Made by a program: the position numbers and the translations under genes
Shown here: positions 30,906 to 34,812 of the stretch, piece after piece
Layout: each line of letters opens with the position of its first letter
Position numbering within the stretch: the first letter of the stretch is position 1
Virus record (IMG/VR): IMGVR_UViG_2974622612_000001
Span: 6,031 to 70,030 of that record
DNA from: a virus
Taxonomy: Duplodnaviria; Caudoviricetes
DNA: 64,000 bases
Reading direction: 5' to 3' (one strand)
The notes under the pieces: generated by a model
What the model was told of the DNA's origin: nothing
Seen by the model: the letters and a program-made list of their open reading frames with translations, nothing else
The model's database searches: none

Positions 30906-31253
30906 TTTCTGTTAGGGTCGCCTAACTCGATTTTCGACTGGCAAGCGCAAACCTCTGACCAGGCAATATAGGTTCTCGATGTAAGCCAGCAAACAAGATC
31001 AAACACCCATCTACCAGCAGGTTCTCCCAAAAAGAAGGGGAAACGGCCTCGAAAACCTCGGTGTGACCCAGATCACAAAAGAAATTTGTTGGCTGGTCAG
31101 AGGCATGATCGATCTTGATGCTGGGGGCGTTCTTAGGGTACCCTTCGTTGCTTTGCTGGCGAAAAAGACCAGGCTGGTGTCAGGTCGTCCCGCCGTGGGG
31201 CGACCGGGGCGGGCCGGGTGGCTCGCTCCACCGCCAGCCGAAAGGTGCATGTC

Positions 31254-31730
31254 ATGTCCGAGTTCAAGATGCCCGCCGTTGGGACCGCCGAGTACGACGC
31301 GCTGATGACCCGTTGGGCCAGCAAGCCGGTCACGTTCGGCCAGTGCAACCGGCTCAAGTCGCTGTTCAAGCAGGTCGCAGACCAGGGCGGCTACGCGGGC
31401 AAGGTTCCCGCGAAGACCGCGAAGGCGTGGGACGTGCTCACGACACGCGACGAAGACCGGCGCTGGACGGAGCTTCGCTCCGACAAGCTCGCTGGCAAGA
31501 TGACCATGAAAGACGCGCATGAACTGGGCGTCAAGCTCGAATCGCTGCTGACCAGCGACGATGCGCCCGTCACGGTCACGCAAACCAAGCCCGCGAAGAA
31601 GCCCGCGAAGGCCGCCGAAAAGCCCGCTGACCAGGCCGTTTCGGTCAAGTCGGGCGACGTGATCTTGCTCGACGGCGAAGCCGTGGTGATCTTCCGCTCC
31701 GGCAAGCGCATTTACGGCAAGCGGGCGTAA
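31254..31730 (+). CDS. Hypothetical protein, probably highly expressed
   Basis: AAAGGTG RBS; very strong GC3 bias; PVTFGQ...MTMKDAHEL helical pattern; K/A/P linker. Confidence 0.8.
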   Translation: MSEFKMPAVGTAEYDALMTRWASKPVTFGQCNRLKSLFKQVADQGGYAGKVPAKTAKAWDVLTTRDEDRRWTELRSDKLAGKMTMKDAHELGVKLESLLTSDDAPVTVTQTKPAKKPAKAAEKPADQAVSVKSGDVILLDGEAVVIFRSGKRIYGKRA

Positions 31731-31773: not shown

Positions 31774-32176
31774 TCGCCATTGCGCGTGTATGCCCGCACG
31801 CGCCTGCACACGTCACACGTCCATGCGTGTATATGTGCGTTCGGCCTCGCTGAATCATTAATTCAGCAGCGAGGCCCAACGCGCTTATATGGTGCATGCG
31901 ATGAGCACACCCATAACTACACAGCGACCGTTGAACGCACGGATAACATGAGTGCGTGCAAAACGTGCATGCGATGAGCACACGTAAGCACACGCGCGAC
32001 AGGTGGACGCCGCCCGAGTGGGGGATCATATGCGGTATACGGGCCGATTCAAAGGCATTTGAATCGGCGAAATAATGCGTGCGTAGAAACGCACGTGCCA
32101 GCGAACGGCTGCAAAGGGTTGACTTGTCCCCAATGCGATTTGTGGTGATAGCTGGATAAATGCACACATACATTAA

Positions 32177-32252
32177 GCGGGCGCGTTGTAAAGACAACGG
32201 GAATGTCATTCTGGATTGCCAGAGCATGCGAGTTCGATTCTCGCCGTCCAAC
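32177..32252 (+). ncRNA. tRNA-like cloverleaf (degenerate; not a canonical tRNA)
   Basis: Perfect T-arm GCGAG-TTCGATT-CTCGC; 5' GCGGGCG partly pairs with CGTCC; two further hairpins; 76 nt, intergenic. Confidence 0.45.
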
Positions 32253-32283
32253 GGAGCGTGAAATACACGCAAGTTAGGAAATG

Positions 32284-32574
32284 ATGAGTGCAAGAAATTT
32301 CGAACGCATTGAAGACGCGACTGATTCGGAGGGATATATTCTCCCCGGTTATTCGCGGTGGGATTGCGAGAAGTGTGGCAACGAAGTCCGCAGGTATCGC
32401 GGCGAACGCGATGCAAGCTGCAACGAATGCGGCGCGCAATACAATGCCGGTGGGCAACGTCTGCGCGACGATTGGCGGGACAACCCGGCCTGGTCGGATG
32501 ATTCGATCAGCGACATGGATGGTTACGAAATGGCCGCGCTTCGTCGTGACGCCGAGTTGGATGGGATGTACTGA
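32284..32574 (+). CDS. Zn-ribbon protein
   Basis: CEKC...CNEC; AGGAA RBS. Confidence 0.7.
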   Translation: MSARNFERIEDATDSEGYILPGYSRWDCEKCGNEVRRYRGERDASCNECGAQYNAGGQRLRDDWRDNPAWSDDSISDMDGYEMAALRRDAELDGMY

Positions 32575-32576
32575 GC

Positions 32577-32792
32577 ATGAAAAGCACACCCATTCACACG
32601 AATCATGTTGGCGACTGCAAGGTCTCGACGGTTTTCATCGAACCGTGGCGTTATTACGAGACCGCGATACTGCGCAAGGGGCAGGCAGTCGAGGTCCGCG
32701 AGTCGGGCATAATCAGCGCGGATGACGCACTGATCGCACACGAAAAGGCCGTAGAATTGGCCGAAAAGGCACTCCGATACAGGGAGCGTTGA
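32577..32792 (+). CDS. Hypothetical protein
   Basis: Compact operon fit. Confidence 0.65.
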   Translation: MKSTPIHTNHVGDCKVSTVFIEPWRYYETAILRKGQAVEVRESGIISADDALIAHEKAVELAEKALRYRER

Positions 32793-34282: not shown

Positions 34283-34289
34283 CACGGAG

Positions 34290-34323
34290 GCCGTGTTGGG
34301 GAACTGGGTCAAACCAACACGGC
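34290..34323 (+). promoter_or_regulatory. Conserved-loop hairpin, copy 1
   Basis: GCCGTGTTGG-GGAACTGGGTCAAA-CCAACACGGC. Confidence 0.75.
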
Positions 34324-34373
34324 GCGACGGGTATACAACAGGGATACCCGCACGGTTGATAGGAACCGGACAA

Positions 34374-34691: not shown

Positions 34692-34725
34692 CCGGTGCCT
34701 GTCAGACGCCAGGTGTAGCGTCGGA

Positions 34726-34759
34726 GCCGATCAGGGGAACTAGGTCAAACCTGATCGGC
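34726..34759 (+). promoter_or_regulatory. Conserved-loop hairpin, copy 2
   Basis: GCCGATCAGG-GGAACTAGGTCAAA-CCTGATCGGC. Confidence 0.75.
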
Positions 34760-34812
34760 GCGAGAATGCTCACGGAATTCAGAGCGTTCTTAAGTGGACT
34801 AGCCCAGTTGGA

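What the first reader, a model, noticed from the sequence alone, without database searches (positions are those of the whole stretch)
32177..32252. tRNA-shaped RNA with a perfect T-arm but no decodable anticodon arm, leading the early operon
Seen: 76 nt; GCGGGCG 5' end (as in tRNA-Gly); 5 of 7 acceptor pairs with CGTCCAA; hairpin CGTTGT-AAAG-ACAACG in the D position; TCTGG-ATTG-CCAGA in the anticodon position (TTGCCA present, but in a 4-nt-loop stem); canonical GCGAG-TTCGATT-CTCGC T-arm. It lies 57 nt after a TTGACT hexamer and about 30 nt before the first early gene. Inference: not a working tRNA, but the preserved hairpins suggest a tRNA mimic (decoy for anticodon nucleases or tRNA-sensing defence, RNase P/Z processing signal, or mRNA stabiliser) rather than plain decay.
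Basis: partly seen in the sequence, partly recalled or inferred. Interest (0 to 1): 0.7.

Follow-up and report, generated by a model that had tools for sequence, protein, structure and literature searches.

The report
Expanded tmRNA-like mini-tRNA in phage leader
The 76-base tRNA look-alike ahead of this mycobacteriophage's early genes is real and kept by selection, and it is a one-off, enlarged relative of an uncatalogued RNA element (the top half and elbow of a tRNA, closest to the tRNA-like end of bacterial tmRNA) that sits 8-12 times between the early genes of related phages, probably as a cutting and stabilising signal for the phage's messenger RNA.

Summary
Window 32177-32252 folds into a four-arm, tRNA-sized structure with a canonical T-arm, and no tRNA finder or Rfam model accepts it. 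It is not decay. Barnyard keeps it with two compensatory pair changes and a rewritten but still paired "anticodon" arm.

It is not tRNA-derived in the simple sense. It descends from one copy lineage of a compact about 46-nt element: a 5-6 bp closing stem, an AAYGGUUUUCG linker, a 6-bp T-stem, a UUCGAUU loop and an AC(G) tail. That element occurs 8-12 times per genome, always on the + strand and just after stop codons, in Papyrus, Fowlmouth, MrMiyagi, Cuke and Indlulamithi, and also in M. abscessus prophages and many IMG/VR contigs.

Covariation in 30 copies is overwhelming. The linker matches the D-loop analogue of actinobacterial tmRNA. In the window, two insertions (12 and 20 nt) turned this minihelix into a cloverleaf look-alike.

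Best reading (inferred, untested): a cis signal for host tRNA/tmRNA end-processing enzymes that leaves a hairpin-protected early mRNA. Anticodon-nuclease decoy is disfavoured.

Earlier agents of this scan noted comparable mini-tRNA punctuation on other phage DNA. I found no Rfam family and no paper. Interest is moderate to high.

The parts
32044..32067 (+). Upstream conserved hairpin A (CCGATTCAAA-GGCA-TTTGAATCGG). Context: probably the end of the preceding transcription unit.
   Evidence: Barnyard has GCGAATTGAA-GGCA-TTCAATTCGC, with the stem changed on both sides and pairing kept. Function not tested.
32077..32096 (+). Upstream conserved hairpin B (GCGTGCGT-AGAA-ACGCACGT).
   Evidence: Barnyard has an unrelated sequence that also forms a hairpin (CAATCCC-AGA-GGGATTG) at the same place. 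The terminator scan flags the stem only on the - strand.
32119..32124 (+). TTGACT hexamer, a possible -35 element of the early promoter (unverified).
   Evidence: Conserved in Barnyard. No -10 at 16-18 nt, and not called by the promoter scan.
32179..32183 (+). 5' strand of the closing (acceptor-like) stem S1, GGGCG.
   Evidence: Pairs with 32245-32249 in the MFE and in RNAalifold. Identical in Barnyard.
32184..32199 (+). D-position hairpin CGUUGU-AAAG-ACAACG. Its 3' strand is the family's conserved ACAACG linker. Its 5' strand and loop lie in a 12-nt insertion (GCGCGTTGTAAA as MAFFT places it, or CGCGTTGTAAAG one base on: the junction is ambiguous).
   Evidence: MAFFT alignment with family copies shows a 12-nt insertion here. 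CGTTGT is the inverted copy of ACAACG (read from the sequence).
32200..32202 (+). Unpaired GGA. The two G are candidate G18/G19 analogues that would dock on the T-loop.
   Evidence: GG is invariant in 30 of 30 family copies and unpaired in the MFE. The tertiary contact is inferred.
32203..32227 (+). Variable bulged stub arm in the 'anticodon' position. It sits where tmRNA helix 2 would leave the tRNA-like domain.
   Evidence: The sequence is largely rewritten in Barnyard, yet both fold as about 9-bp bulged hairpins. MAFFT places it as a 20-nt insertion relative to the family.
32228..32244 (+). T-arm GCGAG-UUCGAUU-CUCGC.
   Evidence: G-C to A-U compensatory change in Barnyard. The loop is invariant across the family, and the stem co-varies at 5 of 6 pairs in 30 copies.
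32245..32249 (+). 3' strand of S1, CGUCC.
   Evidence: Nearly the same as GUCCC of the GGGAC copy lineage in five other phages.
32250..32255 (+). Single-stranded tail AACGGA holding the family's conserved AC(G). Candidate cleavage site between the two structures.
   Evidence: ACG follows S1' in most copies. Actinobacterial tmRNA genes also keep AC after the acceptor. Mycobacterial RNase E prefers RR^CNU in single strands (PMC10641625). Cleavage itself is not shown.
32256..32270 (+). Second hairpin GCGUG-AAAUA-CACGC, a candidate 5' protective hairpin of the mature early mRNA.
   Evidence: Identical in Barnyard. A hairpin lies at the same relative place after family copies, with compensated stems such as CAACG/CGUUG against CAACC/GGUUG.
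32276..32574 (+). RBS AGGAAA and the first early ORF (a small zinc-ribbon-like protein, homologue of Barnyard gp49). Start at ATG 32281 or 32284.
   Evidence: The gene body is only 30-48% identical to Barnyard while the leader is about 80%. In Indlulamithi the homologous gene lies upstream of the element.

Best explanation
The element is the Barnyard-group (Cluster H-like) representative of an uncatalogued family of phage RNA elements. These mimic only the acceptor/T-arm helix and the elbow of a tRNA. In sequence they are closest to the tRNA-like domain of actinobacterial tmRNA.

In relatives the compact about 46-nt form sits in nearly every gap between small early genes: 5-14 nt after a stop codon, followed by an AC(G) tail, a second hairpin and a strong RBS. 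In this genome a single copy survives in the long leader of the first early gene. Two insertions have made it look like a cloverleaf.

Proposed mechanism (inferred). The element is transcribed as part of the early mRNA. Its elbow and 10-12-bp stacked helix are recognised by host tRNA/tmRNA end-processing enzymes. RNase P would cut at its 5' edge. RNase Z or RNase E would cut in the single-stranded A-A-C-G tail. The cut would release an mRNA whose new 5' end is protected by the hairpin at 32256-32270. In multi-copy relatives, the upstream message would be left ending in a stable tRNA-like cap.
For: Shown: the structure is real and selected.
- The MFE is a cloverleaf.
- Window against Barnyard gives 2 compensatory pairs and a rewritten but still paired arm.

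Shown: the family exists.
- An exact-pattern scan of IMG/VR returned only four roughly 70-kb mycobacteriophage genomes.
- BLAST and a descriptor scan found 9-13 copies per genome in the fetched early regions.
- In 30 copies aligned by MAFFT, 95.4% of cells pair against 58.7% in shuffles. There are 119 double-sided changes, and the covariation score is 0.84 against 0.18, with at most 0.20 for slid partners.
- Invariant bases are the GG of the linker plus G, UUC, A and C of the T-loop. These correspond to the tRNA elbow set G18, G19, G53, T54, psi55, C56, A58 and C61.
- The linker class co-varies with T-loop positions 57-60 in 77 distinct copies.
- Covariance model census: Indlulamithi 11, Fowlmouth 8, Papyrus 10, all on the + strand.
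- There are 66 hits in other IMG/VR contigs, and M. abscessus prophages carry it too.

Shown: the link of the window copy to the family.
- It shares GCGGG..GACAACGG, the T-loop, CCGTCC.ACG, a following A-rich-loop hairpin and an RBS with the GGGAC copy lineage.

Shown: likeness to tmRNA.
- Rfam tmRNA aligns one copy at E = 6.8e-7.
- 27 published actinobacterial tmRNAs begin acceptor-AACGGTTTCGAC and end GGGTTCGATTCCC-acceptor-AC.

Anatomy that fits processing.
- The element is placed just after stop codons.
- A conserved single-stranded AC(G) lies between two structures.
- The window tail AA^CGG fits the mycobacterial RNase E preference.
- t-elements give a precedent.
Against: - No RNA data.
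- The window copy fails the family model as a whole: only a local T-arm hit of 11.9 bits, E = 1.6.
- Its closing plus T helix is 10 bp, not 12.
- It follows a 450-nt gap rather than a stop codon. It could therefore have a different role from the compact copies, or none.
- Only two Cluster H sequences were available, because close relatives are masked.
- The base before the closing stem is mostly A, not the U preferred by well-studied RNase P enzymes (own knowledge).
- Nothing excludes a protein partner other than a nuclease.
Confidence: 0.45

Rival explanations
1. tmRNA-pathway mimic. The elements bind host SmpB (and possibly EF-Tu or AlaRS after CCA addition). They would act as sponges or poisons of trans-translation, or recruit SmpB-linked factors to phage mRNAs.
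For: The linker AACGGUUUUCG matches the actinobacterial tmRNA D-loop analogue AACGGUUUCGAC in its first 8 nt, and that analogue is part of the SmpB-binding face (SmpB contact from own knowledge). 8-12 copies per transcript would be an effective sponge. In the window, the 5-bp stem read from 32179 gives G-C, G-C, G.U followed by A, an alanine-identity-like set (read from the sequence).
Against: The 3'-side GGAC segment that forms the G.A pairs next to the tmRNA T-arm is absent. No G3:U70 is conserved across family copies, and no CCA is encoded. The G.U in the window is one pair in two identical sequences and may be chance. The resemblance may reflect only the minimal way to build a stemless D-loop.
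Confidence: 0.12
2. Stand-alone trans-acting tRNA mimic. The RNA is excised and accumulates. It would act as a decoy or inhibitor for host factors that recognise the tRNA acceptor/T-arm/elbow, for example tRNA-directed toxins of defence or toxin-antitoxin systems.
For: Strict conservation of the elbow nucleotides and tRNA-like size. Stable, abundant non-coding early leader RNAs are known in Cluster A mycobacteriophages (PMC5712189).
Against: The rigid placement between stop codon and RBS, and the paired second hairpin, point to a cis role. Anticodon-directed nucleases are excluded as targets, since the arm is variable or absent. No defence partner has been identified.
Confidence: 0.12
3. Generic structured spacer. 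The fold serves only to keep untranslated RNA structured (blocking Rho loading or exonucleases, or pausing transcription), with tRNA likeness inherited from its ancestor and not recognised as such.
For: Elements fill untranslated gaps. Other gaps of this genome carry unrelated conserved hairpins, at 34290-34323 and 34726-34759.
Against: Invariance of exactly the tRNA elbow bases, and the linker/T-loop co-variation, are not needed for a mere hairpin.
Confidence: 0.1
4. Non-functional relic: a decaying tRNA, tmRNA or attP fragment, or the last remnant of the multi-copy system in a lineage that lost it.
For: A single copy, altered by insertions. No compact copies in this genome or in Barnyard. 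T-arm-like hairpins are not rare by chance.
Against: Outside the variable arm, 32155-32284 is about 95% identical to Barnyard while the adjacent gene is 30-48%. The only two substitutions in the T-arm are a compensating pair. The variable arm keeps its pairing.
Confidence: 0.07

Closest known systems
tRNA-like domain (TLD) of bacterial tmRNA (Rfam RF00023)
   Same: Both have an acceptor-type closing stem, a stemless D-loop analogue beginning AACGGUUU, a T-arm GGUUCGAUUCC and a tail starting AC. One family copy is aligned by the tmRNA model at E = 6.8e-7. In the window, a stub helix leaves the domain where tmRNA helix 2 does.
   Different: There is no message part, no pseudoknots, no tag reading frame and no encoded CCA. 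No G3:U70 is conserved. The closing stem is 5-6 bp. The element occurs many times per genome inside mRNAs. The best score, 25.6 bits, is below the family's 47-bit threshold, and the window copy gets no hit at all.
t-elements of plant mitochondria (Forner et al. 2007, PMC1920247) and mitochondrial tRNA punctuation (own knowledge)
   Same: Both are non-decoding tRNA-like folds placed next to mRNA ends and read as cis signals for RNase P and RNase Z. The intercistronic placement is the same.
   Different: The system (organelle against phage) and the sequence family differ, and t-elements have mapped transcript ends. Here no ends are mapped.
RNase III processing sites of the coliphage T7 early region (own knowledge)
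   Same: Both are repeated structured elements between early phage genes, where a host endonuclease would cut a polycistronic early RNA and leave protective structures.
   Different: T7 sites are bulged double-stranded hairpins for RNase III. These are tRNA-elbow mimics, implying a different enzyme.
Stable non-coding Pleft leader RNAs of Cluster A mycobacteriophages (Dedrick et al. 2017, PMC5712189)
   Same: Both are non-coding RNA from the early lytic leader of a mycobacteriophage. The Cluster A RNAs are abundant and stable, and their function is unknown.
   Different: There is no sequence relation, those RNAs are about 500 nt, and no tRNA-like fold was reported for them.
Canonical phage-encoded tRNA
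   Same: Both have a T-arm, a size of 76 nt and a four-helix junction.
   Different: 5 of 7 acceptor pairs; a 4-nt D loop; no 7-nt anticodon loop; the anticodon is not conserved; ARAGORN and Rfam reject it.

Membership tests
Canonical tRNA (ARAGORN / Rfam RF00005) | Detected by tRNA finders at standard thresholds | tested here: not met
   ARAGORN found 0 genes. Rfam gave no tRNA hit even at E<=10. Only ARAGORN at an 80% threshold calls it.
Canonical tRNA (ARAGORN / Rfam RF00005) | 5-bp anticodon stem with a 7-nt loop and a conserved anticodon | tested here: not met
   The arm is a bulged hairpin with a 4-nt loop. Relaxed calls give GTC in the window and CAA in Barnyard.
Canonical tRNA (ARAGORN / Rfam RF00005) | 7-bp acceptor stem and a D-arm with G18 G19 in the loop | tested here: not met
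   5 of 7 positions pair. The D-position hairpin has the loop AAAG, and the GG lies outside it.
Canonical tRNA (ARAGORN / Rfam RF00005) | T-arm: 5-bp stem, loop UUCRANN, G53-C61 | tested here: met
   GCGAG-UUCGAUU-CUCGC at 32228-32244, compensated in Barnyard.
tmRNA (Rfam RF00023) | Score over the family's gathering threshold (47 bits) | tested here: not met
   No hit in the window or the whole genome. One Indlulamithi copy reaches 25.6 bits.
tmRNA (Rfam RF00023) | Tag reading frame and pseudoknot body between the TLD halves | tested here: not met
   Only 44 nt (window) or 10-12 nt (most family copies) lie between the closing stem and the T-arm.
tmRNA (Rfam RF00023) | TLD sequence signature: stemless D-loop analogue plus T-arm plus acceptor and discriminator A | tested here: inconclusive
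   The family linker matches AACGGTTT of 27 actinobacterial tmRNAs. In the window, the motif AACGG is present but half of it is paired in the inserted hairpin.
Mycobacteriophage mini-TLD / tRNA-elbow minihelix family (model R1, defined here) | Full-length significant score with covariance model R1 | tested here: not met
   Only the T-arm matches locally, at 11.9 bits and E = 1.6. The two insertions break the compact linker.
Mycobacteriophage mini-TLD / tRNA-elbow minihelix family (model R1, defined here) | Closing stem enclosing the AAYGG motif and a T-arm with loop UUCGAUU, then tail AC(G) | tested here: met
   GGGCG ... ACAACGG ... GCGAG-UUCGAUU-CUCGC-CGUCC-A-ACG. Flanking words are shared with the GGGAC copy lineage.
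Mycobacteriophage mini-TLD / tRNA-elbow minihelix family (model R1, defined here) | Followed within a few nt by a second hairpin, then an RBS and a start codon | tested here: met
   Hairpin 32256-32270, AGGAAA, ATG at 32281/32284. Family copies show the same layout.
Mycobacteriophage mini-TLD / tRNA-elbow minihelix family (model R1, defined here) | Placed 5-14 nt after the stop codon of the upstream gene, many copies per genome | tested here: not met
   The upstream ORF ends at 31730, 450 nt away. There is one copy in this genome and in Barnyard.
t-elements / tRNA punctuation (functional class) | Mapped mRNA 5' or 3' ends at the tRNA-like structure; cleavage by RNase P or RNase Z | not testable with these tools
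   No RNA data could be reached.

The most novel reading that the evidence does not exclude
The window RNA is cut out, receives CCA and works as a message-less tmRNA mimic. Its closing stem read from 32179 gives G1-C72, G2-C71, G3.U70 plus discriminator A, the alanine identity set. Its linker carries the tmRNA D-loop analogue. It could therefore be alanylated, bind SmpB and enter stalled ribosomes without offering a resume codon. That would let the phage block or redirect host ribosome rescue. The multi-copy relatives would be SmpB sponges built into every early message.
Probability: 0.07. Interest if true: 0.9.

Novelty: new variant of a known kind. Interest (0 to 1): 0.62.

Why it matters
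Mycobacteriophages are among the best-sequenced phages, yet their early regions are annotated as strings of small ORFs with "empty" gaps. Some GenBank ORF calls even run over these elements.

If the elements are processing and stabilising signals read by host tRNA/tmRNA maturation enzymes, this would be a bacterial-virus counterpart of mitochondrial tRNA punctuation and plant t-elements. It would explain how long early transcripts are turned into individually stable messages in mycobacteria. It would also give a compact, portable cassette (minihelix, hairpin, RBS) for expression engineering in mycobacteria.

The sequence-level likeness to tmRNA opens a directly testable link between phage infection and ribosome rescue.

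For this window, the finding shows how such an element can grow by inverted duplication into something that looks like a whole tRNA.

Tried and rejected
- tRNA gene: rejected.
- Known Rfam family: none found in the window, and for compact copies only a sub-threshold tmRNA alignment.
- Anticodon-nuclease decoy: rejected, because the arm is variable and absent from the family.
- attP or tRNA 3'-fragment: unlikely given many same-strand copies in relatives with individually co-varying stems. I did not search the genome for an integrase. A 23-nt T-arm match in phage DS6A was not followed.
- Link to the downstream gene: rejected. A 100-kb IMG/VR relative has the gene without the element, and Indlulamithi has the element after the gene.
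- R1 hit at 32620-32666 (E = 0.25): rejected. It lies in the gp50 reading frame, has no T-arm, and its stem is broken in Barnyard.
- Metagenome pattern scan: no hit.
- The patterns GTTCGANTCNNNCCGTCC (viral contigs) and GGTTTTCN6GTTCGATTCC (bacterial genomes) were too loose. They returned single scattered matches in unrelated taxa, presumably true tRNAs, and I did not analyse them further.
- Promoter: the scan does not support TTGACT with a canonical -10.
- The GATGAGCACAC repeat upstream has two exact copies but is not enriched overall.
- Literature: nine searches (and the text search) found no description of this family. One of them was wasted on an ambiguous phage name.

Full report
**What the window is.**
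The stretch around the finding is about 80% identical to Mycobacterium phage Barnyard (genus Barnyardvirus; Cluster H from my own knowledge). It matches no other record shown. The window is bases 6031-70030 of a 70,030-bp virus record that CheckV rates complete. All genes near the finding are on the + strand. The neighbours are small proteins of unknown function, a DUF7455 protein and a DUF932 protein.

**The observation.**
The minimum-free-energy and centroid structures of 32177-32252 are a four-way junction:
- a 5-bp closing stem GGGCG/CGUCC;
- a 6-bp hairpin with loop AAAG stacked directly on it;
- three free bases GGA;
- a bulged 9-bp arm;
- a perfect T-arm.

The energy is -26.7 kcal/mol, z = -2.2. 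ARAGORN and Rfam do not call it, not even at E<=10 on a 601-nt slice. Relaxed ARAGORN calls it tRNA-Asp(GTC) here and tRNA-Leu(CAA) in Barnyard, so no anticodon is conserved.

On its own the T-arm is only mildly unusual. A strict version is expected 0.1 times per window. A strict T-arm with a closing helix at tRNA distance occurred in 0 of 200 shuffles. The weight of the case comes from comparison with other phages.

**Conservation in Barnyard.**
The orthologous place (L001:3475-3548) is identical in the closing stem, the first hairpin, the T-loop, the tail and the following hairpin. It carries a G-C to A-U double change in the T-stem. The third arm is largely rewritten and still folds as a bulged hairpin. 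RNAalifold on the pair returns the cloverleaf plus the trailing hairpin, with two compensated pairs.

Outside the variable arm, 32155-32284 is about 95% identical. The body of the next gene is only 30-48% identical.

**A family behind it.**
A weak BLAST match of the T-arm and 3' strand led to phage Fowlmouth. An exact pattern built from the two (GTTCGATTCNNNCCGTCCNACG) hit only four contigs in all of IMG/VR: Barnyard, Fowlmouth, Cuke and Indlulamithi.

BLAST with the Indlulamithi copy then showed several places per genome, and also copies in Cluster R-type phages such as Papyrus, Send513 and Weiss13. A descriptor scan of the fetched early regions listed 9-13 copies each in Indlulamithi, Cuke, MrMiyagi and Fowlmouth.

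The module reads, in order:
1. the stop codon of the upstream gene;
2. a few bases;
3. a 5-6-nt strand S1;
4. the linker A-A-Y-G-G-U-U-U-U-C-G;
5. a 6-bp T-stem;
6. the loop UUCGAUU;
7. the T-stem 3' strand;
8. S1';
9. the tail A-C-(G);
10. a second hairpin;
11. an A-rich spacer;
12. the RBS AGGAUGG;
13. the start codon.

In Papyrus, 11 of the 12 copies start 5-14 nt after an annotated stop codon; the copy after gp60 starts 133 nt after it.

**Strength of the structure.**
Thirty distinct copies aligned by MAFFT, not by a structure model, give these figures:
- 95.4% paired cells against 58.7% in shuffles;
- 10 of 11 pairs with double-sided changes;
- 119 such cells;
- a covariation score of 0.84 against 0.18, and at most 0.20 when partners are slid.

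The invariant columns are the GG of the linker and G, U, U, C, A, C of the T-loop region. From established tRNA structure, these are the elbow bases G18, G19, G53, T54, psi55, C56, A58 and C61.

In 77 distinct copies, the bases after GG co-vary with T-loop positions 57-60:
- UUUU goes with GAUU;
- CAGA, CAUA or AAUA go with GAGU;
- UAUU, GUAU or UCGU go mostly with (G/A)ACU; one UAUU copy has GAUU.

This is what a D-loop/T-loop tertiary contact predicts.

A covariance model (R1) gives this census:
- 11 copies in Indlulamithi, 8 in Fowlmouth and 10 in Papyrus, all on the + strand;
- none in this genome or in Barnyard;
- 66 hits in other IMG/VR contigs, up to 12 per locus;
- one of those contigs is related to M. 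abscessus prophages.

Rfam 15 has no family for it, and I found no paper on it.

**Likeness to tmRNA.**
The only Rfam alignment to any copy is tmRNA at E = 6.8e-7, below threshold. It pairs the linker with the tmRNA D-loop analogue and the T-arm with the tmRNA T-arm.

Twenty-seven published actinobacterial tmRNA genes begin acceptor-AACGGTTTCGAC (with variants ACTGG, AATGG). They end GGGTTCGATTCCC-acceptor-AC, often without a full CCA. The phage linker AACGGTTTTCG shares the first eight bases.

The family is thus best described as a tmRNA-type tRNA-like domain without the tmRNA body. It differs in having no conserved G3:U70, no CCA, and no 3'-side GGAC segment.

**How the window copy relates to the family.**
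MAFFT places the Cluster H copies on the family with two insertions, of 12 nt and 20 nt.

Read from the sequence, the 5' word GCGGG^ACAACGG of the GGGAC copy lineage is split in the window by CGCGTTGTAAAG. (MAFFT writes the same 12-nt insertion one base earlier, as GCGCGTTGTAAA; the junction is ambiguous.) That lineage comprises Papyrus 39357, MrMiyagi 34909, Fowlmouth 34981, Cuke 31079 and Indlulamithi 35709. The CGTTGT of the insertion is the inverted copy of the adjacent ACAACG. That creates the 'D' hairpin and a new 5' strand, GGGCG, which pairs with CGUCC.

An extra G (AACGGG) leaves two G unpaired. The 20-nt insertion forms the tip of the stub arm. The T-loop, the 3' strand, the ACG tail, the A-rich-loop hairpin and the RBS are retained.

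The window copy does not pass model R1 as a whole. It also does not follow a stop codon. I therefore file it as a derived relative, not a typical member.

**Mechanism.**
Nothing about function is shown; all of this is inference from anatomy.

The conserved surfaces are exactly those used by enzymes that measure the acceptor/T helix and dock on the elbow: RNase P, RNase Z and the CCA-adding enzyme (own knowledge). tmRNA precursors themselves are matured by such enzymes.

The conserved single-stranded AC(G) between two stable structures is a natural cleavage site. It could be cut by RNase Z after the discriminator, or by mycobacterial RNase E, which cuts before C after purines in single strands (PMC10641625). 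The window tail reads AA^CGG.

One cut there would leave the upstream RNA capped by a tRNA-like fold. The downstream message would start a few bases before a hairpin and a strong RBS. This resembles the logic of T7 RNase III sites and of plant mitochondrial t-elements.

In this window the released upstream piece would be the leader plus the 76-nt RNA, which may itself be stable. Cluster A mycobacteriophages give a precedent for abundant, stable early leader RNAs of unknown function.

I put this reading at 0.45. The rivals are:
- a tmRNA/SmpB mimic: 0.12;
- a trans-acting decoy: 0.12;
- a generic structured spacer: 0.10;
- a relic: 0.07.

**Relation to earlier notes of this scan.**
Several earlier agents reported mini-tRNA or tRNA-elbow elements punctuating early genes of other phages (e1-5625646, e1-5714504, e1-5805956, e1-5356619). 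A sequence look-up with a family copy found no overlap with them. These are unchecked AI notes and are not independent evidence.

My result agrees with their general reading. It adds the mycobacteriophage family, its tmRNA-type linker, the linker/T-loop co-variation and the expanded Cluster H form.

**Limits.**
- Close relatives of this genome are masked, so the Cluster H form rests on two sequences.
- No RNA data were available.
- Hosts of most IMG/VR contigs are unknown.
- The E-values of model R1 are rough.

Noticed in passing
window 34286-34325 and 34722-34761: Two long hairpins with different but fully complementary 10-bp stems and the same 14-nt loop GGAACTRGGTCAAA. Each lies in an intergenic gap. 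The first is followed by another hairpin, an RBS and a start codon, the same layout as the mini-tRNA cassette of related phages. They may be this lineage's substitute for, or a collapsed form of, that element. There are only two exact copies in the window.
   Followed up: partly
window 32044-32067 and 32077-32096: Two adjacent hairpins upstream of the putative early promoter are kept in Barnyard through changed stems; the second is changed completely. Neither has a U tract on the + strand. They could be factor-independent stops of the preceding unit or another RNA element.
   Followed up: no
window 32285-32574: The first early gene (a small CxxC...CxxC zinc-ribbon-like protein) is only 30-48% identical in DNA to Barnyard gp49, while both flanks are 80-95% identical. 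This is a mosaic swap bounded on the left by the RNA element. Its homologue in Indlulamithi lies immediately upstream of the orthologous element copy.
   Followed up: partly
L006:2443-2580 (Fowlmouth gp43), Cuke 31068-31142, L350:5640 (Papyrus gp46 start): GenBank ORF calls overlap the RNA elements: a 46-aa 'hypothetical protein' in Fowlmouth, a hypothetical protein in Cuke, and an annotated start inside an element in Papyrus. These calls are probably spurious or start too early.
   Followed up: no
window 31900-31910 and 31973-31983: Two exact copies of GATGAGCACAC lie 73 nt apart in the long gap upstream of the element, and related GCACAC words occur at 32165 and 32583. The word is not enriched in the window when mismatches are allowed.
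   Followed up: partly
L153:828-878 (Indlulamithi 40298) and L144:1115-1170 (Indlulamithi 35313): Two family copies carry extra structure in the linker. One has a tRNA-like D-arm (GCUC-UGGU-GAGC). The other has a short stub helix where tmRNA helix 2 would be. So expansion of the middle, as in the window, has happened more than once.
   Followed up: partly
L167 and M. abscessus prophage records (e.g. OQ417975, OQ417973): The same element family occurs in a contig related to temperate prophages of Mycobacterium abscessus. It is therefore not confined to lytic M. smegmatis phages.
   Followed up: no
NC_023744.1 (phage DS6A) 28529-28551: A 23-nt match to the T-arm in an unannotated spot of phage DS6A. 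It may be an attP core overlapping a host tRNA or tmRNA 3' end rather than a family member.
   Followed up: no
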